A DNA stretch of 64,000 bases from an uncultured Bacteroidota bacterium (GCA_937127285.1 CAKZLV010000055.1:159-64158), one strand, 5' to 3'; counted from the stretch's first letter, positions 48,939 to 64,000 are shown. Numbers and translations are program-made. The notes: generated by a model not told the origin, from the letters alone.

Positions 48939-49994
48939 TCAAGAGCGCACCGTGCAGTACTGGATGCTGAACCGGTCGTCGGCATCCGTCCACACCGTGT
49001 CGACCTCCAGTCCGGCGCGACCGGCCAGCTGCGCGAATGCGTCGAGGGTGTACTTGAACGAGTACTCGGTGTGAATGGCCTCCCCGGCTTCGAAGGAGAC
49101 CTCGACGCCGTCGACCTGCACCTGCTGGTCGTCCCGGCTCACCAGCTGCATGTCGATGCAGCTGCGGTCGGGGTCCCATTCGGCGGTGTAGTCGAACCGG
49201 TCGAGGTCGAACGTCGCCCCGATCTCCCGGTTGATGCGGTCGAGCACGTTGTAGTTGAACTCGGCCGTGATGCCCTCCGAGTCGTCGTAGGCGGGAACGA
49301 GGACGTCGGGCGACTTGCGCAGGTCGACGCCGATGATCAGGCCGCCGCCCGGACCTGCAATCTGGGCGACGTGGGCGAGAAACTGGTGCGCCTGCTCGGG
49401 CCGGAAGTTGCCAATTGTAGAGCCGGGGTAGTACACGACCGTTCGCGCCGCTGAGGGCGGAGGGTCGGGCAGGGCGAAGTCGGTCGTGTAATCGGCACAG
49501 ACGGGCTGGACGGGGATCGACGGGTGGTCGGTCGCCAGGTCGCGGGATGCCTCCAGCAGGTGGTCGCGGGAAATGTCGATCGGGACGTAGGTGGCTACGT
49601 CGGTCAGCGCGTCGAGAAGGATGCGCGTCTTCCAGCTGCTGCCGCTGCCGTACTCGACGAGGCGGGCGCCGGAGCCGACGGCGGCGGCCATTTCCTCGAC
49701 GTGGTCGCGCATGATTTGCATTTCCGTTCGCGTCAGGTAGTACTCCTCGAGCTTGCAGATGTCATCGAAGAGCTTCGACCCGCGCTCGTCGTAGAGGTAC
49801 TTCGACGGGATGCTCTTCGGGGTGCGCTGAAGGCCCGCAACGACTTCCTCGCGAAAGGAGTTTGTGTCGGGGTATTGGTCGATGAGGGGAAGAAGAGGTC
49901 CGTTCGACGCATCCGCATCGGCGGTGCCGGCGGACGAGGCGCTGGCGTCGGCGCTGGCGTCAGCGCTGGCGTTTGAGGAAGGCATGGAACGCAA
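48939..49994 (-). CDS. egtD: L-histidine N(alpha)-methyltransferase (EgtD family)
   Basis: It shows KYLYDERGSKLFDDICKLEEYYLTRTE, LVEYGSGSS, and YYPGSTIGNF. The N-terminal ~30 aa are a low-complexity Ala/Asp/Ser extension, so the start is uncertain. Confidence 0.8.
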   Translation of the reverse strand: MRSMPSSNASADASADASASSAGTADADASNGPLLPLIDQYPDTNSFREEVVAGLQRTPKSIPSKYLYDERGSKLFDDICKLEEYYLTRTEMQIMRDHVEEMAAAVGSGARLVEYGSGSSWKTRILLDALTDVATYVPIDISRDHLLEASRDLATDHPSIPVQPVCADYTTDFALPDPPPSAARTVVYYPGSTIGNFRPEQAHQFLAHVAQIAGPGGGLIIGVDLRKSPDVLVPAYDDSEGITAEFNYNVLDRINREIGATFDLDRFDYTAEWDPDRSCIDMQLVSRDDQQVQVDGVEVSFEAGEAIHTEYSFKYTLDAFAQLAGRAGLEVDTVWTDADDRFSIQYCTVRS

Positions 49995-50122
49995 GGGGTC
50001 GGGGAGAGAAAAGGCGAGGCGGCGCGATCGTCGGGCCGCCGGGGCGTAGGAAGGCTGGATTGAGCGTGAGGGGCTCGGGGTGAGGAGTTATAGGCGGGAG
50101 GAGCGGGGAAGTAGGGACGGAG

Positions 50123-50986
50123 TCAGGCGGGAGACAGGTCGGCGAGGGGGTCGGGGTGTTGAAACGGGTAGTCGAGCGTGCGGCGGAGCCGCTCGCTGGA
50201 GACGATCTTGCCGGGGGACGTCTCGTCGGCCTCTGCGAAGGTGGGCGGCTCCAGGTCGAGGGCCCAGGCGGCGCGCGTGTACAGGTCGCGCCGCGTCGGG
50301 TGGGTGGGGGCGCAGGCGTTGAAGATCTCCCCGCGCACGTCCTGCTCGACAACGGCCTGTACGATGCCGACGCAGTCGTCTCGATGGATCAGATTCGTCG
50401 GGGCGTCGGGCCGGCGGATGCCGGACCGTCCGGCCAGGAACCGTCCCGGGTGGCGATCTCCCCCGTACAGCCCGGCAAACCGAAGAATCGTCACGTCCAG
50501 ATCGTCCCGTTCGGTCAGACGGCCCTCAATGTCGATCAGCACCTCTCCGGTCGAGCGGCGCGGGCCGGAAAGCGCCTGCGGATCTCCCGGAGGCTGATCG
50601 CTCTCCACCACCCGTCCGGCCGTTCGAGGGTACACGCCCGTCGACCCGGCGAAGAGAACCCAGTCGATGGGGCTGGCCGCCACGTGCTCCAGGACCGCCT
50701 CGATCTGGCGCCGGTGGTAGTCGGCGAGGTCGTCCGCCGGGACGTCGCGCACCGGAGGCGGCACGTTGAGGAACAGCGCCTGCGTGTCGAAGAATCGGTC
50801 GGGATCGGTTCCGTCCAGGTTCGGGGACAGGTCGATCCGGAACGGTGCGATGCCGTCCCGGCGCAGCCGGTCGAGTTTGCCGGGCGTGGTCGTAGACCCG
50901 TGCACCCGAAGGCCGGCGTCGGCCAAACGGGCGCCGATCGGCTGGCCCATCCAGCCGCAACCGAGAATGCTGATCGAGTGGACCAT
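50123..50986 (-). CDS. NAD(P)-binding Rossmann-fold protein (SDR / NAD-dependent epimerase-like)
   Basis: The ORF was trimmed to MVHSISILGCGWMG, which carries the GxGxxG dinucleotide fold. Its length and layout resemble atypical SDRs. Confidence 0.7.
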   Translation of the reverse strand: MVHSISILGCGWMGQPIGARLADAGLRVHGSTTTPGKLDRLRRDGIAPFRIDLSPNLDGTDPDRFFDTQALFLNVPPPVRDVPADDLADYHRRQIEAVLEHVAASPIDWVLFAGSTGVYPRTAGRVVESDQPPGDPQALSGPRRSTGEVLIDIEGRLTERDDLDVTILRFAGLYGGDRHPGRFLAGRSGIRRPDAPTNLIHRDDCVGIVQAVVEQDVRGEIFNACAPTHPTRRDLYTRAAWALDLEPPTFAEADETSPGKIVSSERLRRTLDYPFQHPDPLADLSPA

Positions 50987-51253
50987 AAGACGCAGGGGGA
51001 CGCAGGGAAAGCGGCGAGAAGGAGAATCGGCACGGGCGGAGGCCGACCGGTGCACGCAGGAGTCGGCCGGCAGATCCGAACACGAACTCCGAGAAGGAGA
51101 TCCGGGCTCCGGCGACGGCGTGCGGTGCAGGCAGCGACCGGGCGGGGACGTGCATCACGAGGAGGCCGATCGGAGGGAGCCAGGTCGGAGGGAGCCGAGC
51201 CGAAAGGCGGGGGGTGAGCCGGGGTTGTGGTCCGCGGGTCGTGGTCCGCGGCG

Positions 51254-54200
51254 TCAGAGCGGCAGGGTCACCTCGAAGGTCGTCCCGTCCCCGTCACGGC
51301 TGTCGACATCGATGGATCCGTCGTAGACCTCCACGGCTCGCTTCACGATTGTCATGCCGAGGCCGGAGCCGTCGGCCCCGCCGACGTTGCCGGCGCGGAA
51401 GAAGGCACGGAAGAGATGCTCCTGGTCGCTCTCCGGAATGCCGATCCCCTCGTCGGCCACGCGAAGCTTCAGGGTGTGGTTTTCCATCTTCCACCGGACG
51501 CGGACGGGGGTGTCGTCGGGAGAGTACTTCAGGGCATTGGACAGCAGGTTGGACAGGATGTGGTGGAGGAGATCGGGGTCGACAGCGATCTCGTCCGGCA
51601 GCCCGATCGTGTCGACCTCGACGGTTCGGTCTACCCCCAGGTGGGCGCAGACCTCGTCGGTAACCTCTCGCTGAAAGCGGTGAGGGTCGACGGGGGCGGG
51701 GGTCGGGGTGTCGTGCTCGGCGTCGAGCTTGCTCGTGGTGATCACGTCGCCGAGCAGGCGCGACATGCGATCGATCTGGCGGTGGATGCGGTCGACGTAC
51801 TTCTTTCGTTTCTCGGGCGACCACTGCTCGAAAAACTCTCCCATCATTTCGGCCGAGGACCGGATCGTGGAGAGCGGCGTCCGGAACTCGTGCGACACCA
51901 TGCTGACGACGCTCGACTTCAGCCGGTTCAGTTCGCGCTCGCGCCGCAGCGCTTCCCGCGTCTGCTGCTCCATGCGCTTGCGCTCGGTGATGTCGTGAAG
52001 CGTCCCCACGATTCCGGACGTGTGCCCGTCGGCCGGTCCGTCCTCCTCGTGCCCCTCCTGGAGCGTCTGGGCAAAGAGCGCCATCCACCGCACCGACCCA
52101 TCTCGCGTTCGCAGCTTCACCTCGCTCCGGCACGAGGACTGCTCTCCACGAAAGACGCCGCACATCTCTTCCAGCTCCGGCCCTTCAAAGTACGCCAGGC
52201 TCGGGTTGCCCGTCGTCTCTTCCACCGGATATCCCGTGAGCGCTTCCCATGCCGGGTTGAGAAAGCTCCAGTGGCCGTCCGCATCGATCTGAAAGACCAC
52301 GTCGCGTACGTTCTCGACGACGGACCGGTACTGCGCCTCGCGCTCGCGAAGGGTTTGCTCGGCCTCCTTGCGGATTAGGGCGTTGGCAAACGTGTCGCCC
52401 AGGACGCGGAGCAGCATGATCGTTTCCGACTCCCAGGTGCGGGGCGTCTCGACGGCGTCGAACCCGGCGAAGCCGATCAGCCGGCGCCCGTTCGACATCG
52501 GGACGAGCACGAGCGACTGGACGCTCTGCGCGTGCAGGACGGCCCGAAGCGCCTCCGCCTCCGGCGGAAGGTCGTCCACGTCGGGCACGTGCACGGCGCT
52601 CTCGGTCCGGAGCCGGTCCATCAACCAGGCGAATCGCTCCTGCGGGACGTTTTGGATCTGGTCGCGGTGCGACGTGATGCCGGGGCCGCACCACTCATGC
52701 GTGTTGCTGAGCGTCTCGGCGTCGTTGTCGAACAGGAACACGTAGCTGCGGTCTGCACCGACGAACGGGCCGATCCGGCCGAGGGCTTCTTCGATGCGCC
52801 GATCGGTAATCCCGGCGTCCATGTCGATGAAGCGCGTCGACAGGTCGACGATCAGGTTCTCGAGCAGGACGCGGTACTCGAGTTTGTCCTGCGCCGCCCG
52901 CCAGTCGGTAATGTTGCGCAAGACCGTCTGCGCGGCGCGTTCGCCGTCGTACCGAATGGGAACGGACTGCGACTCGACGATGCGGGTCTCTCCATCCAGG
53001 CGTCGGACCCGGTACTCGAACGGCTCGGTGGCCCGCCCCGCCTCCAGGTCGGCGAGCCGTTCGTCGACCCGGTCTTCGTATCCGTCGGCCACGAAGTCTC
53101 GCACGGATCGGCCGACCAGGTCGCCCGGCGAGTCGGCCCCCAGCAGGTCGGCCCCACTCGGGTTGATGTAGCGAATCCGTCCGCCGACCGAAATCAAGAT
53201 CGGTTCCATGTGCGTTTCCACGAGCCGGCGCCAGCGCTCCTCGCTCTGCCGCAGCGCCTCCTCCTGCGCCTTCTGGGCGGTCACGTCCACGGCGTACCCG
53301 GCATACCGGTCCGGGCCGGTACCCGTCTCCACATGCCCCGCCACCGAGTGCACCCAGCGGATGGATCCGTCCGGCTGCACGACGCGGTACTCCAGCGTGA
53401 GTTCTCCGTCGCTCCACCCGTTGCGCATGGCCTGCACCACGCGGGGGCGGTCTTCGGGATGGATGGAGGACAAGTAGGCCTCCGGATGCTCGTAGAGCTC
53501 TTCGACGGGCCGCCCCCAGATGCGCTCATAGGCCGGGCTGATGTACAGGTACTGTTCTTTCGTGCGCAGCCAGAAGACGCCCTGCACGTTCTCTGTGACT
53601 TGCCGAAGACGCTTCTCGCTTTCTTGAAGGGCCTTTTCCGCCAGCACGCGATCGGTCACATTGCGGGTCGACACAACCAGCGCGCCTCCGTTGCCTGCAG
53701 CTCCCGCCCCTTCGACCGGCGCCGGCAGGTCGGGCCGATCCGCCCCCGCCCACTTCCGGGAGGTCATTTCGACCCAGACGTAGTGCCCGTTCTTGTGCTG
53801 CAGCCGTGCCCGGCGCTTGACGATTTCTCCGTCGAGCGCCCGGTCGATGTTCGTCCAGGTAGGCGGCCGGTCATCCGGGTGCATCAGTTCGATGCAGGGC
53901 CGGCCGACGATCTCCTCCGGCGGGTAGCCGAGCAGCGCCTGAACGGACGGGGTGGCAAACGTGCAGGTTGTGTCGGCCGTGTGGCGGGTGATGACGTCCG
54001 CTACGTTGTTGACGACGTAGCGGCATTCGTTCTCGTTCACGTCTCGCCCGGAGCGATTGGACGCCGGGTCGGCAGCCGCGGCCTCGGCTCCATCTCCTCG
54101 CGAGGGAGCCGGCACGCCGGTGAGCATCAGCAGCCCGTCCGTTCCCTCGATGCGCTCCGCCCGCCAGTATGAGGGAGCGTCGGGGCGGTCTCCCTCGACG

Positions 54201-54547
54201 GGAGGCAGGTGAGCCTCCGCCGCCCCTTTTCTGCAAACCGTTTGCAGAAGATCGTGTACGCGCCCCCGGCGCACCGGGCCGTACACGTCGGTCAGCGTTC
54301 TCGGCTGCGGTTCGTTGCCGGAGGAGCAGTTGTCCCGGTCGTCTGCCTCCCGAGACGGGGTGTGCGGGACCGGGGACGGGGCAGGAGGCGCGGTACGAGA
54401 CGTCGTTCCGATCACCTGCTCCGCAAAGGCGTCGTTCCACCGGTGCAGCGTTCCGTCCAGGTCTGCGATCGCCGCCGGTTTGGCTACCGCGTCGAGGAGC
54501 GCGGTGCTCACTTTTTGCTCCTGGTCGAGGCGTTCGTGAAGGGACAT
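51254..54547 (-). CDS. Multi-PAS/GAF sensor histidine kinase (no receiver domain)
   Basis: The ORF was trimmed to MSLHERLD. It has at least four PAS/PAC modules, one GAF-like module (GADRSYVFLFD), an H-box (SHEFRTPLSTI) and an HATPase_c domain (LSNALKYSP, DEGIGIP, GSGLGM). Confidence 0.9.
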   Translation of the reverse strand: MSLHERLDQEQKVSTALLDAVAKPAAIADLDGTLHRWNDAFAEQVIGTTSRTAPPAPSPVPHTPSREADDRDNCSSGNEPQPRTLTDVYGPVRRGRVHDLLQTVCRKGAAEAHLPPVEGDRPDAPSYWRAERIEGTDGLLMLTGVPAPSRGDGAEAAAADPASNRSGRDVNENECRYVVNNVADVITRHTADTTCTFATPSVQALLGYPPEEIVGRPCIELMHPDDRPPTWTNIDRALDGEIVKRRARLQHKNGHYVWVEMTSRKWAGADRPDLPAPVEGAGAAGNGGALVVSTRNVTDRVLAEKALQESEKRLRQVTENVQGVFWLRTKEQYLYISPAYERIWGRPVEELYEHPEAYLSSIHPEDRPRVVQAMRNGWSDGELTLEYRVVQPDGSIRWVHSVAGHVETGTGPDRYAGYAVDVTAQKAQEEALRQSEERWRRLVETHMEPILISVGGRIRYINPSGADLLGADSPGDLVGRSVRDFVADGYEDRVDERLADLEAGRATEPFEYRVRRLDGETRIVESQSVPIRYDGERAAQTVLRNITDWRAAQDKLEYRVLLENLIVDLSTRFIDMDAGITDRRIEEALGRIGPFVGADRSYVFLFDNDAETLSNTHEWCGPGITSHRDQIQNVPQERFAWLMDRLRTESAVHVPDVDDLPPEAEALRAVLHAQSVQSLVLVPMSNGRRLIGFAGFDAVETPRTWESETIMLLRVLGDTFANALIRKEAEQTLREREAQYRSVVENVRDVVFQIDADGHWSFLNPAWEALTGYPVEETTGNPSLAYFEGPELEEMCGVFRGEQSSCRSEVKLRTRDGSVRWMALFAQTLQEGHEEDGPADGHTSGIVGTLHDITERKRMEQQTREALRRERELNRLKSSVVSMVSHEFRTPLSTIRSSAEMMGEFFEQWSPEKRKKYVDRIHRQIDRMSRLLGDVITTSKLDAEHDTPTPAPVDPHRFQREVTDEVCAHLGVDRTVEVDTIGLPDEIAVDPDLLHHILSNLLSNALKYSPDDTPVRVRWKMENHTLKLRVADEGIGIPESDQEHLFRAFFRAGNVGGADGSGLGMTIVKRAVEVYDGSIDVDSRDGDGTTFEVTLPL

Positions 54548-55098
54548 GGCCGCCGATCGACTGTTCGGGCAGAATCGGGTTCGAGCAGCACCGGGCCTGC
54601 GAGTGGCTGCGGCAGGGATGCCTTTCATCGGGGTGTGCGGTTAGGAAGTCAAAACTCAAGGAACCGGTCGATGCCGTCAGAAGCAATCGAACCGGCCTCC
54701 TGACGCGGCGGCGCGGCGATCTTCCCACCGTTGTAACGTGTGCGGAATTCGAGGTCGCCCCGAGGAACGCGGCTTCTTCCTCGTCTTTCAGATGGATGTT
54801 CTCGAAGAGTGCCGTCGGCGGCATCGGTCTTCGTCGAACGACATCCGACCGATACCATCTCGACCGACCCTTCTCCCCTTCCGGAGGCGTTGCCGGTGTC
54901 CACCGCAGACGCGTTCCGGCAGGCACCCGCAGTTCCGGCAGGCACCCGCGATCCGGGCATGCGCCCACACTGCGTGCGCCACCGCGTGCGCACCTGATCC
55001 GGGTATCCGCTTGATCCGGGTGTCCGCTCGGGCGCAGGCACTCGCGCGCACCGATCCCTCGAAGCCAGCGTTCTGCAGGAACTTCCCGGCCTGTCCCC

Positions 55099-56778
55099 AT
55101 GCCCGACCCTGATTCTTCGTCTGGCCGCCGCGATGCCGACCTGGACTGGTACCGGCGGCAGTGGGAGGAGCTTCAAGACATTTTGTCCGTCGACCGGGCC
55201 GAGGCCGTCACCGGCCGGGTGCGAGAGCTTCGGCTGGACGCGCTGCAGGACCGAGCCGAGGTATGGGCGGAACAGGCCGAGGGCGGCGACGAGGCGGCGC
55301 GCCGCGTGCTCTCCGAGATCCGCGACCACCTGCGCGCGCTCCGCGACCGGTCCGACGCGCTCGATGCCCTCTGCGATGCCCTCGACGCGCCGGATGCCCG
55401 GACGGCGGCACAACGGGTGCAGGCGCTGAAAGAGGAGCGCGACGACCTGCGCGCTGCCCAGCAGTCGTTTCGGCAGGCCGGCTTCGACGACCCCGAGGAT
55501 GCCCTCGAGATGATCCGCACCATGGAGGCGCAGCTCGACCAGCTCTACGGGGAGAAGGAATCGACCCTGAAGTCGGAACGGCGCGCCGAGGAGATCGCCG
55601 AAAAAGGCGGAACGTTTGAACAGCTGGAGGCGCTGCTCGCCCGCGAGGAGAAGCTCCAGCGCGAACTGGGCATCTCGTCTTCCGACGAGATCATTGCCAT
55701 GGTGAACGGCCTCGTCGACCAACTCGAGGACCTGTACGACCGGCAGGGAGCCGCTCGGCCGGAGTCGGTAAACGGAACGAGCGTGGACGCGCCGTTCGAC
55801 CGGCTGGAGGAACTGCTGGACCGGGAGCAGACGCTCCAGGACGAACTCGGTGTGTCGAGCCCGGACGAGGTCGTTGCGATGGTCCGCGGCCTCACCCGGC
55901 AGCTGGAGGATCTGTACACGGCCCGCGAGCGCCTCGCCCGCGTCAACCTCGACGACGCAGATAGCGTCATCGAGATGGTAAACAGCATGAAAGCGCAGCT
56001 GGAGGTGCTGTACGAGGACCAGGAGCGGCTGTCGAACCAGGGAATCGACGGCGTCGACCACGCCCTGTCGATGATCGAAAGCATGGAGGCGCAGCTGACC
56101 GACCTCTACGAGAAACAGCAAACCCACGGGGCGTCCGACGAGAAGCTTCAGCGCCTGCACGAGCAGTTGGAGTCGCTGCGACGGGAAAAAGAAGACCTGC
56201 TCGAGCGGCGCGAAGCGCTCGAGGCGGAAAATGCGTCGTACGCCCAGACGGTCTCCGCCCTGGAAGACACCCTGGGAACCTCCGACCCGGAAACCATCTC
56301 CAGTCTGGTGGACAGCATGGAGAAGCAGCTCGCCGACGTCTACCAGTCGCAGGAGTCGCCGGCCGACCCGGACGCGACGCCGCCTCCGCCGCTCATCGAC
56401 CGGTCGGACCTGGAGGAGATCGATTCTCGCTCGGCCGAAGAGCTGCACGCCCTGCCGGTCGGCGCCTTCTGCCTGGCGGACGACGGAACGGTGCGCCGGG
56501 CGAACCGTGCCGCCCTACAATGGCCGAGTGCAGAGGCCGCCTCCCCCGACGCGCTGACCGGCCGCGACTTTTTCTTCGATCTGGCGCCGGCAACCAACAA
56601 CCCGCCGTTCCGCGGCCGGTTCTCACGGGGGGTGCGCGAGGAAAATCTGGATACTCGCTTCTCGTACACCTACGTTGCACGAGACGTCCCCCTCACCGGC
56701 TTCGTGGTTCAGATGTATCGCACCGGCGACGACGCCAACTGGATTCTGTTCCAGCCGGTGACGGACCGCTCGCCCTGA
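55099..56778 (+). CDS. Repeat-rich coiled-coil protein with a C-terminal PYP-like PAS domain lacking the chromophore cysteine
   Basis: This 559-aa acidic ORF has six copies of a ~24-aa motif ending Q-L-[ED]-x-L-Y. Its C-terminal ~120 aa are clearly paralogous to the adjacent PYP (FRGRF, FSYTY, NWI), but it reads LAPATNN where PYP reads VAPCTNN. Confidence 0.75.
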   Translation: MPDPDSSSGRRDADLDWYRRQWEELQDILSVDRAEAVTGRVRELRLDALQDRAEVWAEQAEGGDEAARRVLSEIRDHLRALRDRSDALDALCDALDAPDARTAAQRVQALKEERDDLRAAQQSFRQAGFDDPEDALEMIRTMEAQLDQLYGEKESTLKSERRAEEIAEKGGTFEQLEALLAREEKLQRELGISSSDEIIAMVNGLVDQLEDLYDRQGAARPESVNGTSVDAPFDRLEELLDREQTLQDELGVSSPDEVVAMVRGLTRQLEDLYTARERLARVNLDDADSVIEMVNSMKAQLEVLYEDQERLSNQGIDGVDHALSMIESMEAQLTDLYEKQQTHGASDEKLQRLHEQLESLRREKEDLLERREALEAENASYAQTVSALEDTLGTSDPETISSLVDSMEKQLADVYQSQESPADPDATPPPPLIDRSDLEEIDSRSAEELHALPVGAFCLADDGTVRRANRAALQWPSAEAASPDALTGRDFFFDLAPATNNPPFRGRFSRGVREENLDTRFSYTYVARDVPLTGFVVQMYRTGDDANWILFQPVTDRSP

Positions 56779-56891
56779 GCCGCTCGCCCTGAGCCGGTGC
56801 CGCCTCGACGCCGGGGCCGTCCGCGGGCCCGCCTCCGGGCCGGCCGACGGCGTCGTGAACCCATCCGCTTTGAAACCGACCCCACACACCG

Positions 56892-57377
56892 ATGCCTGAA
56901 TCGGAAGAAAAGTACCCGTTTCTCGACAACCCATCGGACGAAGGAACAACGTCCGCCAACGGCCACCGCTCGTCCGGCGAACCGGCAGACCCCGCGCCGT
57001 CTGTCGACGAACTGCACTACGACGACGAGAGCGTCGGCGAAAAGCTTCGGCACGCGACGGACGAGCAGCTCAACGGCGCCAACTTCGGGATTATCCAGAT
57101 TGACGACGACGGCGTCGTTCAGTTCTTCAACGCCTACGAGTCGGAGCTCAGCGGTGTCGACCCGGACGATGCAGAGGGGAACAACTTCTTCACCCAGGTG
57201 GCTCCGTGCACCAACAACCGCCTCTTTCGGGGGCGCTTCAAGAAGGGGGTGCGCCGCGGCGAGCTGGACGAGACGTTTTCCTACACCTACACGTACAAAA
57301 TGCGCCCGACGCTGGTCGACGTCCGGCTCTACCGAGACGAGGCCGGCCACAACTGGATCATGGTCCAAAAGTACTGA
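56892..57377 (+). CDS. pyp: Photoactive yellow protein (with a ~37-aa N-terminal extension)
   Basis: It aligns by eye to Halorhodospira halophila PYP. VAPCTNN contains the chromophore Cys (TGC 57207-57209), the Glu46 equivalent is present (AYESEL), and the C-terminus is NWIMVQKY. Confidence 0.9.
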   Translation: MPESEEKYPFLDNPSDEGTTSANGHRSSGEPADPAPSVDELHYDDESVGEKLRHATDEQLNGANFGIIQIDDDGVVQFFNAYESELSGVDPDDAEGNNFFTQVAPCTNNRLFRGRFKKGVRRGELDETFSYTYTYKMRPTLVDVRLYRDEAGHNWIMVQKY

Positions 57378-58027
57378 CCCCGGCACCGCCGGCTCCCGAA
57401 GGGCCGAATTCGGACGCCGAGTGGGGAGGACCGAGTTCGGGGGCTCATCCGTCCGGCAATTTCGGGACGCACCGCCGGGCGACATCGCTTCGTCCGGACC
57501 GTTGTCCCGCAGCGGGGGTCCCCTCTCCCCCTTCGGATTGCCCCGGCGCGCTGAACCGGCGCGTTAAAGCCGGCGCGCTGACACCGACGAATGGGGGCGA
57601 ATGGGGACGAGTTGATCCGACGCGTCTCCCCGCGGGTCGTGCGTCCCGAGCGAGGCCCGGGAGCTCCTCGTGGGCGGTCGCCTTGCTGTCCGCCGCGCAA
57701 CCGGGGCCCCGGCAGGTGACACGTTGCTGTAACGGATGGATGTCTCCTCCGGTACGCCCGGTACTTGCGAGGCAGTCAACCGTTGTGGGTATCACGAGGG
57801 GGAGAAACGCGCCCGCCTCGGCACCAGCCTGTGCAGACTCGACAGCGGCACGGATCGTCGAGAAACCACCGTAGAGAAACCCACGAGAAACCCACGGGTC
57901 GGGTGCGGGCGAAGCCGCCCACGGGACGGCGCTCGGCACGACGCACGGCGGCGCTCTGGCTGCCGCCGTCCACGTCCTGCTGCTCCTTTTCGTACGCATC
58001 CCTGATGATTTCCTCCGGAGTTCGAGT

Positions 58028-59587
58028 ATGATGAGAAGGAACGGGACGACAGGAGCTCCGGACCCTTCCGGGTCTCCGCGCACCACCGCAAGCCCCGAGG
58101 CCGTGGAGGCCCTGGAGGAGGCGCTGGACCGGTGCGGTTCTCCCGGGGAGCCGCCCTCCGAGAATCCATGGAAATCACTTCTCTTCGACCGGCTGTGCGA
58201 CCGCGCCCTTCCCGCTACGATCTGGAAGGGAAACATCACGCCGGCTGCCTCGCTCTGGACGGGGTCGCGGCTCTGGACGCAGGCCTTCCGCAGCGGGGGC
58301 TTGGAGGCAGGGGACCGGCTCGTCATCGCCCTGCCGTCCAACACGACGTTCGTCCAGGTGCTCCTCGCCGCCATCTGGCAGGGCTGCACCGTGTGCCTCG
58401 TGCCGCCCTCCGAGGACGTAGACGCCGCCTGCGAGGAATTGGACGCCCGCGCCGCCGTGGCTGAGGAGCCGGGCCCTCACGTCTGGACGCCTGAAGGCTA
58501 CGCCGGCCCGCGCACCACGCCGGACGCGCTTCGCTCCGTCTCGGCCGGCCGCACCCCGTCCGTGCGCTTTCTGATGCGCACCTCGGGCACCACCGGCCTG
58601 GCGCGGTGGGTCGCCCTCTCCGACCGGAACGTCCTCTCCGTCCTGCGGAGCCACCTCCCCCACTTCCGCCTGAACGACGGCCGGGTGCTGTCGGTGCTGC
58701 CCTGGACGCACGCGTTCGGGCTCATCCTCGACTTCTTTCCCGCCCTGCTCGCCGGCGCCGAAATCATCCGTGCCCCCGAAGGCGGTCGCTCGCCCCGCAA
58801 GCTGCTGAAGCTGAGCGAGGCCTGGGGGTCGACGCACCTCTCCACCGTCCCCCTCGTCATCGAACGGCTGCTCGCCTGTGACGGCGGCGAAGCCCTTCTG
58901 AGGAACCTGCAGGGCGGCATCGTCGGGGGAGCCCCCGTCTCGGGGCCGATGGCCGAGAAGCTCAGCGAGACGCGCCTGCGGGCCGGATACGGCCAGACCG
59001 AAGCGTCTCCCGGCATCGCTCTCGGAGAACCGGGGCACTGGGAGGCCAACTACCTCGGCCGTCCCGTCGGCTGCAGCGTGGACGTCGCCCCCGACGGCGA
59101 ACTGCTCTTCAGCGGAGACAACGCCTGCGTCGGCTTCTGGGAAGACAGGGGCCTGCACCGGGCCGACCCCCAGCGAACGGTGCGCACCGGCGACCTCGTC
59201 CGGCGCGACGGCGACCATCTCTTTTTTCGCGGGCGCAAGGACGACGCCTTCAAGCTGTCCAACGGCCGCCTCGTTCAGGCCAGCGCCTGCGAGGCCGAGA
59301 TCAAGAACAGCTTTCCGACGCTCCACGACGCCCTGCTCTTTACCCACAACGGCCGCGACCTGACGCTGGCCGTGTGCCCGTCGCAGGACGCGCCGGACGC
59401 GGACCGCCCCTCCGACGAGGCGCTTCTTTCTGCCCTCGGGTCGCTGGCGGCGCGCACCGACCGGGTGGTTTCGGTCTCCCCGGACGAGTGGGTCTCCACT
59501 CCGAAGGGGGCCGTCGACCGGTCGGCCATGATCGAAACCCTCACCGCCGACCTGCCGGCCGCCTCCCGAGCAGCCCGCTGGTCGTGA
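58028..59587 (+). CDS. pcl: AMP-dependent synthetase/ligase, probable p-coumarate-CoA ligase
   Basis: It has the adenylation motifs MRTSGTTGLAR, GYGQTE, and TGDLVRRDGDHLFFRGRKDD. Its position between pyp and the ammonia-lyase matches known PYP chromophore clusters. The start is uncertain. Confidence 0.8.
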   Translation: MMRRNGTTGAPDPSGSPRTTASPEAVEALEEALDRCGSPGEPPSENPWKSLLFDRLCDRALPATIWKGNITPAASLWTGSRLWTQAFRSGGLEAGDRLVIALPSNTTFVQVLLAAIWQGCTVCLVPPSEDVDAACEELDARAAVAEEPGPHVWTPEGYAGPRTTPDALRSVSAGRTPSVRFLMRTSGTTGLARWVALSDRNVLSVLRSHLPHFRLNDGRVLSVLPWTHAFGLILDFFPALLAGAEIIRAPEGGRSPRKLLKLSEAWGSTHLSTVPLVIERLLACDGGEALLRNLQGGIVGGAPVSGPMAEKLSETRLRAGYGQTEASPGIALGEPGHWEANYLGRPVGCSVDVAPDGELLFSGDNACVGFWEDRGLHRADPQRTVRTGDLVRRDGDHLFFRGRKDDAFKLSNGRLVQASACEAEIKNSFPTLHDALLFTHNGRDLTLAVCPSQDAPDADRPSDEALLSALGSLAARTDRVVSVSPDEWVSTPKGAVDRSAMIETLTADLPAASRAARWS

Positions 59588-59735
59588 TCGCACCGCCGCG
59601 CGACGGGTCGGGCGGCCGCAGGATTCGTCCACCGGCCCGCGCTCCGTGCCGTCGCTGCCCCCCGGCCGCCGATGCCGGATTCCTCCTTGGTCCCGGTCCC
59701 CCCTTTGGTTTCCCCTCACCGCCCCCTCTGCCCTC

Positions 59736-61229
59736 ATGTCGACGCCCGTGTTCCTCGGTCCCGACGTCTGCTTGACTGCAGAGGACGTGGAGACGGTGGC
59801 CCGCAGCGCGTCGTGCTGCGTGGAGCGAACGGAGGCTGCCGCCGCCGGCATGCAGCGGGCCCGGGAGGCCCTGGGCGAGGTGGAGCGGAGCGGGGCGCCC
59901 ATCTACGGCGTCACCACCGGGTTCGGAGCGCTCGTCGATCATGCCTCGGAGGGCTCGTCAGCCGACCACGCAACCGGCCTTCTGCATCACCTCACGACCG
60001 GCTCCGGCCCCCCGGCCGATCGATCCGTCGTGCGAGCGATGATGCTGGCCCGGCTTCAGGCCCTCGCCCAGGGACGATCCGGCGTCCGCCTCTCCGTCTT
60101 CGACGCCCTGGCATCGCTGATCAACGCATCGATCACGCCGGACGTCCCGGAGATCGGCTCCCTCGGGGCGAGCGGAGACCTCACCCCCCTCGCGCACGTC
60201 GCGCAAGTGGTTGCCGGTGACGGATCGGTGCGCGCGCCGGACGGCAGCCCTGCCCCCGCCAGCGACGCACTTGCCGAAGCCGGCCTGGAGCCGGTGTCGC
60301 TGGACGGACGCGACGCCCTCGCCCTGGTAAACGGAACCGCGTTCATGACGGGGCTGGCCAGCCTGGCCCTCGTGCGGGCCGAGCGCTTGATGCGGCGGGC
60401 CGAAGCGCTCACCGGCTGGGCCTACCGTCTGCTCGGCTGCTCGCTGGAGCCGCTCGATGCCGTCCTGCACGACGCTCGCGGGCATGCCGGGCAGGCCGCC
60501 AGCGCCGCAGCCATCCGCGACGAGGCGCTCCGCGACGGATCCATCCCCGAGGCCGACCGGCCGCTGCAGGAAGCATACTCGCTGCGGTGCGCCCCGCAGA
60601 TCCTCGGCGCGGTGCGCGAGCAGCTGCAGTACGTGCGGTCCCTCACCGAAACCGAACTGAACGGCACGAACGACAACCCCGTCATCGATCCCGACGGCCC
60701 CCGCGTCATCCACGGCGGCAACTTTCAAGGCCAGCAGGTGGCCTTCGCCGCCGACGCACTCAACGCCGCCATCACGCAGGTCGGCGTCCTGGCAGAGCGG
60801 CAACTGGACCTCTTGCTCACGCCGCAGCGCAACGGCGGCGCACCGCCCCTGCTCGCCTGGCGTCCGGGGCCGACGAGCGGCCTGGCCGGCGCGCAATTGA
60901 CAGCCACCTCCCTCGTCGCCGAACTGCGGCACGACGCCCAGATGAGCGCCACCTTCTCCATTCCCACCAACGGCGACAACCAGGACGTCGTGTCGATGGG
61001 AGCGATGGCGGCCCGCCGCGCCTACGAGCAGACCGACCACCTCGCCCCCATCCTGGCCATTCTGAGTCTGGCCCTGACCCAACTGACCCACCTGCGCCGG
61101 GCAGGACGCGCCGACGGGCCCGCTCCCGCCCCTCCCCCCTGGATGCCGGACGTCGAGCCCGTCGTAGACGACCGGCCGCTCCGCTCCGACATTGCCGACC
61201 TCGCCGAGCGGTGGCTCCACCCCGACTAA
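59736..61229 (+). CDS. tal: Aromatic amino acid ammonia-lyase, probable tyrosine ammonia-lyase
   Basis: The ORF was trimmed to MSTPVFLG. It has the MIO-forming GASGDLTPLAH (Ala-Ser-Gly) and NGTNDNPV. LLHHLTTGSG puts His-Leu at the substrate-selectivity position. Confidence 0.85.
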   Translation: MSTPVFLGPDVCLTAEDVETVARSASCCVERTEAAAAGMQRAREALGEVERSGAPIYGVTTGFGALVDHASEGSSADHATGLLHHLTTGSGPPADRSVVRAMMLARLQALAQGRSGVRLSVFDALASLINASITPDVPEIGSLGASGDLTPLAHVAQVVAGDGSVRAPDGSPAPASDALAEAGLEPVSLDGRDALALVNGTAFMTGLASLALVRAERLMRRAEALTGWAYRLLGCSLEPLDAVLHDARGHAGQAASAAAIRDEALRDGSIPEADRPLQEAYSLRCAPQILGAVREQLQYVRSLTETELNGTNDNPVIDPDGPRVIHGGNFQGQQVAFAADALNAAITQVGVLAERQLDLLLTPQRNGGAPPLLAWRPGPTSGLAGAQLTATSLVAELRHDAQMSATFSIPTNGDNQDVVSMGAMAARRAYEQTDHLAPILAILSLALTQLTHLRRAGRADGPAPAPPPWMPDVEPVVDDRPLRSDIADLAERWLHPD

Positions 61230-61377
61230 GCGCACACCCCGTCACGCACGCCGTGCAGCGGCCAACCCAGCGCCGGCCCGCCTCTCCCGAACTCTGCGCT
61301 CTCCGGTCCTGTGCCCTCCCCGCATCCGGCTTTTCGTTTCTTCCTCCGCCGCTTTCCCACACTCCCCCCTGCCTCCT

Positions 61378-61869
61378 ATGCCCGAACGCATCGACCCCGA
61401 ACCCGGCCAAGAATCGGTCTGGGATTACCCGCGCCCTCCCGCCCTCGAGCGGGTGACCGACCGGATTCAGGTGGTCTTCAACGACGAACTCATCGCCGAC
61501 ACGACCGGTGCCTACCGCGTGCTGGAAACGAGTCACCCGCCCGTATACTACCTGCCTCCGGAAGATATCAACATGGAGCGGCTGGAGAAGACCGGTCACC
61601 GAACCCTGTGCGAATTCAAGGGGCAGGCCGTCTACTACACCGTCCGCGTGGGCGACCGAACGGCCGAACGCGCCGCGTGGGGATATCCGAACCCGACGGA
61701 GCGCTTTCAGGAGATGCAGAACTACCTGGCGTTCTACGCAAGTAAAATGGACACCTGCCGCATCGGAGACGAAGAGGCCTACGCCCAGGAAGGGGACTTC
61801 TACGGCGGATGGATCACCGACGACATCGTCGGGCCGTTCAAGGGCGGGCCGGGGACGGTCGGTTGGTGA
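61378..61869 (+). CDS. DUF427 domain protein
   Basis: The ORF was trimmed to MPERIDPE. The WDYPRPP...YYLP...C.FKG.A.YY...AWGY pattern is characteristic of DUF427. Confidence 0.8.
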   Translation: MPERIDPEPGQESVWDYPRPPALERVTDRIQVVFNDELIADTTGAYRVLETSHPPVYYLPPEDINMERLEKTGHRTLCEFKGQAVYYTVRVGDRTAERAAWGYPNPTERFQEMQNYLAFYASKMDTCRIGDEEAYAQEGDFYGGWITDDIVGPFKGGPGTVGW

Positions 61870-62042
61870 GCCCCCCGCCGGCCGGAGAGCGCCGGGAGGA
61901 ACCGGCCGGGCGAGCCGCAGGCAAATGAGGGGCGGGCCGAAGACGACCGGCCCGTCTACACCGGGAATCTCCCCGCCCGGGTGCGCGTTGGAGGGTCCGG
62001 CGGTTCAAGGAGCCCTCACCTCATTCCTTCTCTCCGAGAACC

Positions 62043-64000
62043 ATGTCCCTCCCTTCCCCCGGCGACGTCGTGGACGGCTACCGGCTCGATGCCGTCATCG
62101 GGCGCGGCGGAATGGGAACCGTCTACCGGGGCACCGACCTGGCGCTCGACAAAACCGTAGCCGTGAAGGTGGTGGCGGCCGACCTGGCAAGCGATCCCAA
62201 ATTCGTCGACCGCTTTCGGGTGGAGGCGCAGGCACTCGCCCGGCTGGACCATCCCGGCATCGTGCGCGTCCTCGCCTTCCGCGAGGTGCAGGGCGTCCTC
62301 GCCCTCGTGATGGAGCACGTCTCCGGCCCCTCCCTCGCCGCCTTCATCGCCCGGCACGCCCCGCTCGCGCCCGCCCGCGCCCTCCCGCTCTTTCGCCGCG
62401 TCGCCGCGGCGGTTCGGCACGCCCACGACGAGGGGGTTCTGCACCGAGATCTGAAGCCGAGCAACATTCTCCTCACGCCCGACGGGCAGCCCAAAATCAC
62501 CGACTTCGGCCTGGCGCGCATCCTCGCCCTCGACGACCGGCTGACGTCAACCCACGAGCGGGCCGGGACCACCGCCTACATGGCTCCGGAGCAAATCCGG
62601 GGACTGCGCAACACCGGGCCGCCCACCGATCTGTTCGCCCTCGGACTTCTCTTCTACGAGGTCCTCACCGGCCGCCTGCCGTACTCGTTGTCGGGCGGAT
62701 CGTTTGAGATCCAGCGGCGGATCTTAGAATCCGACTTTCCTCCTCCGTCGGCTTTCGCCGCCGACCTGCCGCCGGCGCTGGACGAACTCGTGGAGGACCT
62801 GCTGATCAAGGATCCGGAGCACCGCCTCGACGATCCCGATGCCCTGGTCCGACGGCTCGAGGGCGTGCAGACGTCCGGTACCTCGCCGCTCCCCCTGTTT
62901 CCCGCCGACCGTCGAGAGGGGCTGTTCCCGTCCGGGCCCCGCCGCTGGAGCTGGATTGTGGGCGGCACGATGGGGGTGGCCCTGGTGCTCCTGGCCGGCC
63001 TCTTCGTCTTCCTGCCCAACAGCCCACCGCCGGATACCGTTCTGGACGTGGACACCGAGCCGCCGGGGGCGCGCGTGAGCGTCAACGGCGTCTCGATCGG
63101 CGAAACGCCGATCCGTCAAGCCCATTCGGGGGACGACACGCTGCGCGTCGTTGTGGAAAAGGAGCCGTATGCGCGTCTTGACACCCAGCTCGTCGGGCCC
63201 GGTTCACTTCGCCTCTCCGCCCGGCTCGTTGCCGCGGAGGCCTCGCCCCCGGATACGTCCGCCCGCCTCTCCGCCCGCCCGCCGGCGTCGGATCCGGATC
63301 CCGCATCCCGCAGCCCCGCTCGTTCCTCGCCGGCCGTCTCCGCACCCCCCGAGCGCGCTGCCTCCTCGCGCCTCGCCCCGCCTGCATCGACGCCCCCCTC
63401 CGATCGCCGCGCGACGAACCGCGGACGCCTGATCGTTGACACCACCCCGCCCGGTGCCGCGGTAACCGTCGACGGAGAAGCGGTCGGGCAGACCCCCGTC
63501 TCGATCCTGCGGACCGCCCGCGAACACTCCGTCCACATCCAGCATCCCGGCTATCAGCCAATCCGCACCACCGTGCGCGTCCGGCCGGGGGACACAACCG
63601 TGCTGCGGCGCGCGCTCTCCCCCCGTCGCGGCACGCTGCAGCTACGCATCACCCCGGCAGCGGATGTGTACCTAAACGGTTCGTTGGTTGCGCAAAATAC
63701 CCGCACCGTCACGGCCGACACCCTCTCTCCGGGCCCGTCCCGCGTGACGGTGGTTTCGCCCCAGGGGCGGTGGGAAGAGCGCCTCACGATCCGACCCGGG
63801 GACGAAACGCAACGCATTGTCGACTTCCGCCGGCAGGTCGACGTCACCGTCGTGACGCAGACCCCCACCGGAACGCCGATTCCCCACGCCACGCTCCGGG
63901 TCGATGGAATCCGGCGTGGATACACGCCGCAACGGCTCTCCGTCGGCATCGGGCAGCGCGTCTTCCGCGTCGAGCAGGAGGGCTACACGCCGGCGGAACG
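62043..64000 (+). CDS. Hanks-type Ser/Thr protein kinase with a TM segment and C-terminal PEGA domains (partial, runs off the window)
   Basis: This is my own translation; the ORF is absent from the track because it has no stop in the window. It shows GRGGMGTVY, VAVKV, HRDLKPSNILL, DFGLAR and YMAPE, then a TM helix (WIVGGTMGVALVLLAGLFVF). PEGA-like repeats follow (VDTEPPGARVSVNG, VDTTPPGAAVTVDG). Confidence 0.85.
   Translation, partial: MSLPSPGDVVDGYRLDAVIGRGGMGTVYRGTDLALDKTVAVKVVAADLASDPKFVDRFRVEAQALARLDHPGIVRVLAFREVQGVLALVMEHVSGPSLAAFIARHAPLAPARALPLFRRVAAAVRHAHDEGVLHRDLKPSNILLTPDGQPKITDFGLARILALDDRLTSTHERAGTTAYMAPEQIRGLRNTGPPTDLFALGLLFYEVLTGRLPYSLSGGSFEIQRRILESDFPPPSAFAADLPPALDELVEDLLIKDPEHRLDDPDALVRRLEGVQTSGTSPLPLFPADRREGLFPSGPRRWSWIVGGTMGVALVLLAGLFVFLPNSPPPDTVLDVDTEPPGARVSVNGVSIGETPIRQAHSGDDTLRVVVEKEPYARLDTQLVGPGSLRLSARLVAAEASPPDTSARLSARPPASDPDPASRSPARSSPAVSAPPERAASSRLAPPASTPPSDRRATNRGRLIVDTTPPGAAVTVDGEAVGQTPVSILRTAREHSVHIQHPGYQPIRTTVRVRPGDTTVLRRALSPRRGTLQLRITPAADVYLNGSLVAQNTRTVTADTLSPGPSRVTVVSPQGRWEERLTIRPGDETQRIVDFRRQVDVTVVTQTPTGTPIPHATLRVDGIRRGYTPQRLSVGIGQRVFRVEQEGYTPAE

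What the first reader, a model, noticed from the sequence alone, without database searches (positions are those of the whole stretch)
51254..64000. Self-contained PYP photoreceptor neighbourhood: HK / PYP-like / pyp / pcl / tal / DUF427 / STK-PEGA
pyp is followed on the same strand by an adenylate-forming ligase and an MIO ammonia-lyase. TAL and pCL are the two enzymes known to make and activate p-coumarate for holo-PYP. The block is preceded divergently by a 1097-aa PAS/GAF histidine kinase and followed by a DUF427 gene and a membrane Ser/Thr kinase. No PYP signalling partner is established in any organism, so the two kinases and the PYP-like protein are natural candidates.
Basis: partly seen in the sequence, partly recalled or inferred. 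Interest (0 to 1): 0.65.

Follow-up and report, generated by a model that had tools for sequence, protein, structure and literature searches.

The report
PYP operon with unknown conserved partner
This is a genuine blue-light photoreceptor (PYP) gene cluster from a salt-loving bacterium. Its "PYP-like" gene belongs to an unannotated helical-repeat protein family that sits next to PYP genes in many bacterial phyla, which makes it a testable candidate for PYP's long-sought partner, while the two flanking kinases are not conserved neighbours.

Summary

I compared 78 pyp loci from many phyla. The Ser/Thr kinase is linked to pyp only on the window's own contig. The histidine kinase is linked only in the Longibacter subclade (3 further loci). 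DUF427 is linked in 16 of 18 informative Salinibacteraceae loci and nowhere else.

The 559-aa "PYP-like" protein is the main result. Its C-terminal PYP fold lacks Tyr42, Glu46 and Cys69 in all 111 family members. Its N-terminal part holds at least 6 copies of a ~30-aa helical repeat (S[LM]E[EA]QLxxLY). A profile of that repeat hits almost only the gene just upstream of pyp, in 62 of 74 independent loci. In the reverse test, 8 of 8 repeat proteins chosen without regard to context lie beside a Cys69 PYP gene.

No Pfam or NCBIfam model covers the family, every named member is "hypothetical", and neither recent PYP neighbourhood survey mentions it. It is the best-supported genomic candidate for a PYP partner. 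Its mechanism is inferred, not shown.

The parts
51254..54547 (-). Sensor histidine kinase, 1097 aa (several PAS domains, GAF, a further PAS, HisKA, HATPase_c), transcribed divergently from the PYP cluster. It is a neighbour in one subclade only.
   Evidence: Pfam and gene call on L001. Orthologues of about 50% identity in the same divergent position occur only in L002, L006 and L007, the Longibacter clade. In Longibacter salinarum (L002) an OmpR-type response regulator follows the kinase.
55099..56778 (+). Helical-repeat protein fused to a pseudo-PYP domain (559 aa).
   Evidence: 111 homologues, all unannotated. AF2 model: 13 helices followed by a PYP fold. The gene lies directly upstream of pyp in all Salinibacteraceae loci.
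55477..56355 (+). Repeat region (aa 127-419): six clear copies of the ~28-32 aa unit, consensus xG[LV]xxxx[ED]A[LIV]xx[IV]xS[ML]E[EA]QLxxLYE[ED][RK]E.
   Evidence: Units at aa 127, 190, 250, 282, 314 and 392. The unit profile hits only this ORF in the whole 64-kb window.
56401..56763 (+). Pseudo-PYP domain (aa 435-555): a PYP fold without the chromophore residues (Ala42, Ala46, Ala69).
   Evidence: PDB sequence alignment. pLDDT above 90. Foldseek matches to PYP structures with target TM-score 0.84-0.88. No Cys69, Glu46 or Tyr42 in any of 111 family members.
56892..57377 (+). pyp: photoactive yellow protein, 161 aa, with an N-terminal extension of about 40 aa. It has Phe42, Tyr45, Glu46, Ser50 and Cys69.
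   Evidence: PDB PYP matches at E = 5e-26. TIGR02373 scores 106.7 bits, below its 143-bit cut-off. Residue table. The closest relatives come from Salinibacteraceae.
57378..58027 (.). 650-nt stretch with no detected gene between pyp and the ligase.
   Evidence: No Rfam match and no remnant of the second repeat gene that fills this slot in L004, L009 and L011. It is 94% identical to contig L001, whereas the genes are 99-100% identical.
58028..59587 (+). pcl: adenylate-forming ligase, the presumed p-coumarate:CoA ligase.
   Evidence: PF00501. Homologues of 40-66% identity follow pyp in most loci across phyla. Substrate not tested.
59736..61229 (+). tal: MIO-dependent aromatic amino-acid lyase with the TAL-type His85-Leu86 switch and the Ala145-Ser146-Gly147 MIO motif.
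   Evidence: PF00221 at 471 bits. Best PDB relatives are tyrosine aminomutase and R. sphaeroides TAL. Switch alignment, residue positions, role of His89 in PMC4542537.
61378..61869 (+). DUF427 (PF04248, beta-tent fold) protein, a Salinibacteraceae-specific last gene of the cluster.
   Evidence: Pfam at 120 bits. Present on the same strand after tal, or after pcl where tal is missing, in 16 of 18 informative Salinibacteraceae loci and in 0 of 57 other loci. Also listed for Salisaeta longa in the Xing 2022 supplement.
62043..64000 (+). Hanks-type Ser/Thr kinase with a predicted membrane-spanning stretch and PEGA domains, cut by the window end. It is a coincidental neighbour.
   Evidence: Pkinase and PEGA. 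Full length is 673 aa on L001. No homologue next to pyp in any other Salinibacteraceae locus.

Best explanation
The region is a photoactive-yellow-protein gene cluster of an uncultured Salinibacteraceae bacterium: [helical-repeat::pseudo-PYP] - pyp - pcl - tal - DUF427.

What follows from established knowledge of the pathway: TAL makes p-coumarate from tyrosine, pCL activates it, and it is attached to Cys69 of PYP.

What is new: the upstream 559-aa gene is the local form of a widespread, unannotated family. The family is built from a ~30-aa helix-turn unit. The minimal member is an acidic two-helix hairpin of about 57 aa. This family is the most constant neighbour of PYP genes related to the window's own, apparently the 'clade B' of Xing et al. 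2022. It is usually co-oriented just upstream of pyp, sometimes overlapping it by 4 nt.

My inference: the repeat module binds the PYP fold directly.
- In bacteria with single-domain PYP, it would act as a PYP-binding partner whose association changes with light, analogous to Rc-PYP and PBP.
- In Salinibacteraceae and some other Bacteroidota, a duplicated PYP was fused to the module and lost its chromophore site. This gives a light-blind PYP mimic that either occupies the repeats until light-activated PYP competes with it, or pairs with PYP.

The histidine kinase is at most a lineage-specific output. The Ser/Thr kinase is a chance neighbour. DUF427 is a family-specific accessory gene of unknown role.

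Shown: gene identities, the repeat architecture, loss of the chromophore residues, and the two-way genomic association. [quoted passage not shown]
For: Gene identities:
-.

Forward association:
- A profile of the repeat unit was searched in six frames over 1.28 Mb of pyp loci and the 64-kb window.
- It hits the ORF ending about 20-320 nt upstream of pyp in 62 of 74 loci that were not used to build the profile. The phyla include Bacteroidota, Ignavibacteria/Kapaibacteria, Armatimonadota, Gemmatimonadota, Myxococcota, Planctomycetota and Leptospirales.
- Nearly all remaining hits lie next to extra PYP genes or between pyp and pcl.

Reverse association:
- Four are upstream of pyp-pcl(-tal), one of them in an actinobacterium. 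Four are divergent from MerR::PYP fusion genes.

Rarity and domain content:
- Only 488 clusters out of 1.84 billion representatives carry the module.
- The only recognisable domain found fused to it is a PYP fold. That fold lacks Cys69 in 111 of 111 close family members and 40 of 41 more distant representatives. This is a Rosetta-stone argument for an interaction.

Structure:
- The hairpin model has mean pLDDT 91.
- The PYL domain has pLDDT above 90 and matches PYP structures with target TM-score 0.84-0.88.

Charge and coupling:
- In non-halophiles the hairpin has pI 4.1-4.5 and its PYP has pI 8.9-9.8 in 3 of 4 pairs.
- The two genes overlap by 4 nt in 2 of these 4 pairs.
- This matches the charge pattern reported for Rc-PYP (9.4) and PBP (3.9).
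Against: - There is no experimental or structural evidence of binding. AF2 could be run only on single chains.
- The association holds for PYPs resembling the window's. The scan patterns were biased towards these. It is absent from 7 loci, mostly Proteobacteria and Verrucomicrobiota (L046, L072, L074, L076, L077, L078, L080). It therefore says nothing about the classic H. halophila PYP.
- S. ruber PYP has been made as functional holoprotein in E. coli without this partner (Memmi 2008, from my memory, not checked here). The partner is therefore not needed for folding or chromophore loading.
- Gene adjacency could reflect co-regulation without contact.
- Within Salinibacteraceae, conserved gene order may partly reflect shared descent. 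This weakens the DUF427 case in particular.
Confidence: 0.7

Rival explanations
1. One reading: the flanking histidine kinase and/or the membrane Ser/Thr kinase receive the PYP signal.
For: The HK is transcribed divergently across a 550-nt intergenic region from the repeat gene. A 50%-identical orthologue holds the same position in three Longibacter-clade loci; in Longibacter salinarum an OmpR-type regulator follows it. Published surveys find HisKA/HATPase genes upstream of pyp in some operons (PMC12826048).
Against: No HK homologue lies within 10 kb in 18 other Salinibacteraceae loci. The STK is next to pyp only on the window's own contig. No response regulator follows the HK in the window.
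Confidence: 0.12
2. The repeat protein is a maturation factor or chaperone that holds apo-PYP for chromophore attachment by pCL, not a signalling partner.
For: It is usually in one gene string with pcl and tal. Overlapping stop and start codons suggest stoichiometric co-production.
Against: It also accompanies MerR::PYP genes that have no adjacent pcl or tal. Other PYPs are loaded in E. coli with TAL and pCL alone (PMC12826048). Fusion to a Cys-less PYP fold that cannot be loaded is hard to explain under this model.
Confidence: 0.13
3. The repeat protein is a structural scaffold or localisation factor, or merely a co-transcribed gene, with no specific contact to PYP.
For: Long members (up to 1290 aa, 13-14 repeats) look like extended helical proteins. 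No catalytic or signalling domain is present.
Against: The family is extremely specific to PYP loci. The minimal 55-60 aa hairpin forms are too small to be scaffolds. A PYP fold is the only recognisable domain found fused to the repeats.
Confidence: 0.12
4. DUF427 is the missing enzymatic step, for example transferring p-coumaroyl to Cys69 or acting as an editing thioesterase, in Salinibacteraceae.
For: It is on the same strand directly after tal in 16 of 18 informative family loci. It stays next to pcl where tal has been lost (L019, L020, L021).
Against: It is absent from all 57 pyp loci outside the family. The beta-tent fold has no known catalytic role (PMC4287342). In Longibacter and Salisaeta the next gene is also conserved (cystathionine gamma-synthase), which points to gene order inherited by descent.
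Confidence: 0.1

Closest known systems
pyp-pcl-tal operon of Halorhodospira halophila and other PYP bacteria
   Same: The gene order is the same: pyp, then an adenylate-forming ligase, then an MIO lyase of TAL type. PYP has Cys69 and Glu46.
   Different: The PYP belongs to the Bacteroidota/Spirochaetota-type clade, carries Phe42/Tyr45 and has an N-terminal extension of about 40 aa. The cluster has an extra upstream repeat::pseudo-PYP gene and a downstream DUF427 gene. A 650-nt gap lies between pyp and pcl.
Salinibacter ruber PYP (Memmi 2008; Mix 2021)
   Same: Same bacterial family. Same N-terminally extended, very acidic PYP with Ser50 and Tyr45.
   Different: S. ruber has Tyr42. In the Xing 2022 supplement the closely related S. 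altiplanensis pyp is not flanked by pcl or tal. The window's PYP is about 60-75% identical to named Salinibacter, Salinivenus, Longibacter and Salisaeta PYPs.
Rc-PYP / PYP-binding protein (PBP, RCAP_rcc01067) of Rhodobacter capsulatus
   Same: A small, very acidic protein encoded next to pyp that pairs with a basic PYP. PBP is predicted to have N-terminal helices and C-terminal strands, like the 111-aa Planctomycetota form of the repeat family.
   Different: Sequence homology could not be tested, because the PBP sequence is only an image in the supplement. No Rhodobacter protein appeared among the named family hits. Rc-PYP belongs to another PYP clade.
Cys69-less PYP homologues catalogued by Xing et al. 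2022 (PMC9664959)
   Same: Their data set lists the Longibacter (564 and 1096 aa) and Salisaeta (460 and 1086 aa) 'hypothetical proteins', with A/A/G, V/G/S, A/A/S and V/A/S at positions 42/46/69. These are the same family as the window's 559-aa protein.
   Different: That paper discusses Cys-less PYPs only for methylobacterial Ppr (redox sensing). It does not describe the N-terminal repeats, the stand-alone repeat proteins or their linkage to pyp.

Membership tests
Photoactive yellow protein (window 56892..57377) | PYP-type PAS fold with N-terminal cap, recognisable by sequence | tested here: met
   phmmer against PDB PYP chains gives E = 5e-26 over residues 42-159.
Photoactive yellow protein (window 56892..57377) | Cys69 for the thioester link and Glu46 as hydrogen-bond and proton donor | tested here: met
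   'VAPCTNN' and 'NAYESE' align to Cys69 and Glu46.
Photoactive yellow protein (window 56892..57377) | Tyr42 | tested here: not met
   Phe at position 42, as in 117 of 120 closest relatives, with Tyr at 45 instead. Y42F PYP still binds chromophore (PDB 1F9I is listed), and Xing 2022 count Y42F proteins as functional PYPs.
Photoactive yellow protein (window 56892..57377) | TIGR02373 equivalog cut-off | tested here: not met
   106.7 bits against a cut-off of 143. Xing 2022 report that this model finds only about 20% of PYP homologues.
Photoactive yellow protein (window 56892..57377) | Bound p-coumarate and a photocycle | not testable with these tools
   Requires expression and spectroscopy.
Photoactive yellow protein (C-terminal domain of the 559-aa protein) | PYP fold | tested here: met
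   AF2 pLDDT above 90. Foldseek against PYP structures gives target TM-score 0.84-0.88 at 30% identity.
Photoactive yellow protein (C-terminal domain of the 559-aa protein) | Cys69, Glu46 and Tyr42 | tested here: not met
   Ala/Ala/Ala in the window. None of the three residues occurs in any of 111 family members. This domain is a pseudo-PYP, not a photoreceptor of the PYP type.
Tyrosine ammonia-lyase | MIO-forming Ala-Ser-Gly motif and aromatic-lyase fold | tested here: met
   PF00221 at 471 bits. 'GASGD' aligns to the MIO position of SgTAM.
Tyrosine ammonia-lyase | His-Leu selectivity switch (His89-Leu90 of R. sphaeroides TAL) | tested here: met
   'HHL' aligns with 'RSH' of SgTAM, placing His-Leu at the switch positions. 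His85 lies 61 residues before the MIO Ser146; I recall the same spacing for RsTAL (His89 to Ser150). His89 is conserved in TALs (PMC4542537).
Tyrosine ammonia-lyase | Preference for tyrosine in an enzyme assay | not testable with these tools
   NCBIfam HAL, TAM and TAL models all score below their cut-offs.
p-Coumarate:CoA ligase of PYP operons | Adenylate-forming domain encoded next to pyp | tested here: met
   PF00501. Homologues follow pyp in most loci of many phyla.
p-Coumarate:CoA ligase of PYP operons | Activity on p-coumarate | not testable with these tools
   No equivalog model matches.
Rc-PBP-like PYP-binding protein | Encoded next to pyp, small and acidic | tested here: met
   Adjacent in 62 of 74 loci. 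Hairpin forms are 55-116 aa with pI 4.1-4.5.
Rc-PBP-like PYP-binding protein | Sequence homology to RCAP_rcc01067 | not testable with these tools
   The sequence exists only as an image in the supplement and the R. capsulatus genome could not be reached.
Rc-PBP-like PYP-binding protein | Light-dependent complex with PYP | not testable with these tools
   Needs biochemistry or multimer modelling.
DUF427 / PF04248 | Pfam gathering score | tested here: met
   120.5 bits against a cut-off of 22.1.
   HK is linked in 3 further loci only. STK is linked in none.

The most novel reading that the evidence does not exclude
The S[LM]E[EA]QLxxLY helical-hairpin repeat family is the direct, light-sensitive binding partner of the Bacteroidota/Spirochaetota-type PYPs. 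That group includes the biophysically studied S. ruber and Leptospira types. The fusions to a chromophore-less PYP fold in Salinibacteraceae would then be a natural Rosetta stone for the interaction. This would give the PYP field its first broadly conserved downstream or accessory component.
Probability: 0.4. Interest if true: 0.85.

Novelty: new variant of a known kind. Interest (0 to 1): 0.72.

Why it matters
PYP has been a textbook photoreceptor and the PAS-domain prototype since 1985. Yet how single-domain PYP passes its signal on is still described as the main gap in knowledge (PMC12826048, PMC9664959).

A small protein family with no database model sits beside PYP genes in many phyla, and the only recognisable domain found fused to it is a degenerate PYP fold. 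This turns the open question into a simple experiment: co-express a 57-aa hairpin with its PYP and look for a complex in dark and light.

The result also removes the two kinases from the candidate list for this locus. It shows that domain-based neighbourhood surveys miss partners that have no Pfam model. If the interaction depends on light, a 57-aa helical hairpin plus PYP would be a compact optogenetic pair.

Tried and rejected
- Rfam scan of 54400..62200 at permissive E-value: no match, so no riboswitch or leader RNA.
- Sigma-70 promoter and terminator scan: nothing above the shuffle expectation.
- 650-nt pyp-pcl gap: no remnant of the second repeat gene seen in sister genomes.
- Pfam and NCBIfam on eight repeat proteins: only sub-threshold coiled-coil noise.
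- Pfam on ten atypically long family members: no extra domain.
- PDB sequence search with a 113-aa family member and Foldseek with the hairpin model: no matches.
- Homology of the family to Rc-PBP: could not be tested, because the PBP sequence is only an image.
- An FtsZ::repeat fusion (P0228): rejected as an assembly chimera. It is a single 2.7-kb contig on which GC rises from about 0.50 to 0.65 along the gene.
- My initial recollection that S. ruber carries pyp-pcl-tal was wrong. The Xing 2022 supplement lists no ligase or lyase beside the pyp of the closely related S. altiplanensis.
- Weak tblastn hits of the N-terminal part upstream of pyp in other phyla: first suspected to be chemoreceptor coiled coils, then shown to be the specific repeat.

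Full report
**What is in the window**

- Histidine kinase, 51254..54547 (-), 1097 aa: several PAS domains, GAF, a further PAS, HisKA, HATPase_c.
- PYP-like protein, 55099..56778 (+), 559 aa.
- pyp, 56892..57377 (+), 161 aa.
- AMP-binding ligase, 58028..59587 (+).
- Aromatic amino-acid lyase, 59736..61229 (+).
- DUF427 protein, 61378..61869 (+).
- Pkinase + PEGA kinase from 62043 to the window end. On the 187-kb ENA metagenome contig that carries the same genes it is 673 aa long (L001).

The closest PYP relatives come from hypersaline metagenomes and from Salinibacter, Salinivenus, Longibacter and Salisaeta genomes, at 60-87% identity. The organism is therefore an uncultured member of Salinibacteraceae, not S. 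ruber itself.

**The known core**

The 161-aa protein aligns to crystallised PYPs at E = 5e-26. It keeps Glu46 and Cys69. It has Phe at position 42 and Tyr at 45, as do 117 of its 120 closest relatives.

The lyase has the Ala-Ser-Gly MIO motif. In the alignment to tyrosine aminomutase its 'HHL' sits opposite 'RSH'. That places His-Leu at the two selectivity-switch positions, as in R. sphaeroides TAL His89-Leu90 (role of His89 from PMC4542537).

The ligase is a generic AMP-binding enzyme by profile. However, 40-66%-identical homologues follow pyp in most loci from many phyla. pyp-pcl-tal clusters are well known (PMC12826048; PMC9664959). This part is a new member of a known kind. Substrate specificities were not, and could not be, tested here.

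**Which neighbours are conserved**

I scanned one genome per GTDB species with a PYP alignment and obtained 78 pyp loci with up to 10 kb of flank, from at least nine phyla. I then ran tblastn with each window protein against them.

- **Ser/Thr kinase.** It has no homologue next to pyp in any Salinibacteraceae locus other than the window's own contig.
- **Histidine kinase.** It has a 50%-identical, divergently placed orthologue only in three Longibacter-clade loci (L002, L006, L007). In Longibacter salinarum (L002) an OmpR-type regulator follows it. Eighteen other family loci have no HK within 10 kb.
- **DUF427.** It lies on the same strand after tal in 16 of 18 family loci that extend far enough. 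It follows pcl directly where tal is missing (L019-L021). It is absent from all 57 loci outside the family. Salisaeta longa shows the same order in the Xing 2022 supplement. DUF427 has a beta-tent fold and no known function (PMC4287342). In Longibacter and Salisaeta the gene after it (cystathionine gamma-synthase) is also conserved, so part of this linkage may be inherited gene order.

**The PYP-like gene is the interesting part**

Its C-terminal 120 residues match PYP structures by sequence. In an AlphaFold2 model they have pLDDT above 90 and Foldseek target TM-scores of 0.84-0.88. Positions 42, 46 and 69 are all Ala.

Across 111 homologues, position 69 is never Cys (Gly 47, Ala 45, Ser 16). 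Position 46 is never Glu and position 42 is never Tyr. The domain is therefore a chromophore-less pseudo-PYP.

The N-terminal 420 residues are all-helical, with 13 helices. They contain six clear copies of a unit of about 28-32 residues, roughly xG[LV]xxxx[ED]A[LIV]xx[IV]xS[ML]E[EA]QLxxLYE[ED][RK]E.

**The repeat follows pyp across phyla**

Inspecting the ORF just upstream of pyp in non-Salinibacteraceae loci showed the same motif without any PYP fold. Examples are a 594-aa Bacteroidota protein with 14 copies, Gemmatimonadota proteins of 180-290 aa, and proteins of about 57-63 aa in Ignavibacteria, Kapaibacteria and Janthinobacterium that consist of just two copies.

I built a profile from 46 units and searched all six frames of the 80 loci (1.28 Mb) and the whole window. 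At 12 bits or more per unit, 62 of the 74 loci not used as seeds have a repeat ORF ending about 20-320 nt upstream of pyp on the same strand. Nearly all hits elsewhere lie next to additional PYP genes (Longibacter, L020) or between pyp and pcl (L004, L009, L011). The window has no other hit.

Loci without the repeat are mostly proteobacterial or verrucomicrobial PYPs of other clades. The scan patterns favoured PYPs like the window's, so the statement applies to that clade, apparently 'clade B' of Xing et al.

**Reverse test and family size**

A profile of the two-repeat core (A3) found 112 proteins in the 5.8-billion-sequence collection. All are 'hypothetical' and none has a Pfam domain.

I looked up eight of them, chosen only for long contigs. 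All eight lie beside a gene with a Cys69-containing PYP domain.
- Four are upstream of pyp followed by a ligase, and in three of these also a lyase. One of the four is in the actinobacterium Pengzhenrongella phosphoraccumulans.
- Four are divergent from MerR-HTH::PYP fusion genes of Myxococcota.

An exhaustive HMMER search of 1.84 billion cluster representatives found only 488 with E of 1e-3 or better, ranging from 55 to 1290 aa. Of the 133 listed hits that were new, 41 end in a PYP fold, and 40 of these lack Cys69. Ten members with long unexplained regions have no Pfam domain above the curated cut-off.

No Pfam or NCBIfam model covers the repeat. The PDB holds no relative. Sources give no names.

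The minimal 57-aa member is predicted with mean pLDDT 91 as a two-helix hairpin. In four non-halophile pairs the hairpin protein has pI 4.1-4.5. Its PYP has pI 8.9-9.8 in three of the four. In two of the four pairs the two genes overlap by 4 nt.

**Interpretation**

Four things are shown:
- a tight, two-way association between this repeat family and PYP-domain genes that spans phyla;
- co-orientation and frequent translational coupling;
- recurrent fusion to a PYP fold and, among the members examined, to no other recognisable domain;
- systematic loss of the chromophore site in that fused fold.

From this I infer that the repeat module contacts the PYP fold. It would then be a partner of PYP, with the Salinibacteraceae protein carrying a built-in, light-blind PYP mimic.

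The only experimentally supported PYP partner, the 142-aa acidic PBP encoded next to R. capsulatus pyp, shows the same charge pairing and binds in a light-dependent way (bioRxiv 10.1101/2021.06.01.446672).

Alternatives that the data do not exclude are a role in holo-PYP maturation, a scaffold role, or co-regulation without contact.

**Prior knowledge**

Xing et al. 2022 list the Longibacter and Salisaeta members as Cys-less 'hypothetical proteins' in a supplementary table. Term searches of that paper and of the 2025 survey of 984 PYPs and 113 operons found no mention of repeats, coiled coils, hairpin proteins, MerR fusions or DUF427. Further literature searches found nothing either. Subscription-only literature could not be searched.

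**Verdict**

The chromophore cluster and the PYP-like candidate hold up. The two kinases do not. DUF427 holds only within the family.
- The core is already known.
- The conserved repeat partner and its pseudo-PYP fusion appear to be undescribed and make the PYP-partner question directly testable.

Noticed in passing
window 56892..57377; proteins P0001-P0120: The window PYP and 117 of its 120 closest relatives have Phe at H. halophila position 42 and an invariant aromatic residue at 45 (Tyr 111, Trp 9), giving 'FFNxYES'. S. ruber-type PYPs have Tyr at both positions. Tyr45 may replace Tyr42 as hydrogen-bond donor to the chromophore.
   Followed up: partly
window 56892..57010 (PYP aa 1-40): The acidic N-terminal extension of the PYP carries a short conserved 'KYPFLD' motif, shared with Longibacter, Salisaeta and several metagenomic PYPs (alignment A1). 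It could be a docking motif.
   Followed up: no
window 57378..58027; L004 8982..10337, L009 9949..11547, L011 10461..11570: The window has a 650-nt stretch with no detected gene between pyp and pcl. In three sister genomes this slot holds a second repeat gene with an even more degenerate PYP-like C-terminus, so their pyp is flanked by two such genes. The window shows no remnant of it.
   Followed up: yes
L082 3391..4225, L084 3426..4213, L087 2395..3207, L088 2347..3258: Myxococcota encode MerR-HTH::PYP (Cys69) fusion proteins of 175-203 aa. Each is paired divergently with a 68-85 aa hairpin protein. This looks like a one-component light-responsive transcription factor. It is not mentioned in the main text of either PYP survey I searched.
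   Followed up: partly
L081 4001..4336 and L066, L068, L069, L073, L079: Planctomycetota-type members (~111 aa) add a conserved C-terminal tail, 'SEKSxTFExxxxKPVLKAxWKE', to the two repeats. This is the same helix-then-strand layout described for Rc-PBP. In L081 a GvpL/GvpF gas-vesicle gene flanks the cluster.
   Followed up: no
L002 1..5301 (Longibacter salinarum), also L006, L007, L020: These loci carry a second module, a repeat::pseudo-PYP protein of about 1096 aa followed by two more pyp genes. In Longibacter salinarum (L002) an OmpR-type response regulator follows the histidine kinase.
   Followed up: partly
L089 748..2454 (protein P0228): This gene call joins an FtsZ GTPase core to five repeats. 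It sits on a single 2.7-kb metagenome contig, and GC rises from about 0.50 to 0.65 along the gene. It is most likely an assembly chimera, not a real fusion.
   Followed up: yes
L084 4340..7972: In one Myxococcota locus the hairpin gene is followed on the same strand by a 1210-aa Pkinase + AAA/NACHT-like protein. This is the only other case of a Ser/Thr kinase next to a hairpin or PYP gene, and a single instance.
   Followed up: no
window 48939..51055 (-): Downstream of the histidine kinase lie a Rossmann-type (epimerase-like) gene and a Methyltransf_33 (EgtD-like) gene. There is no response regulator, so the kinase is an orphan at this locus.
   Followed up: no
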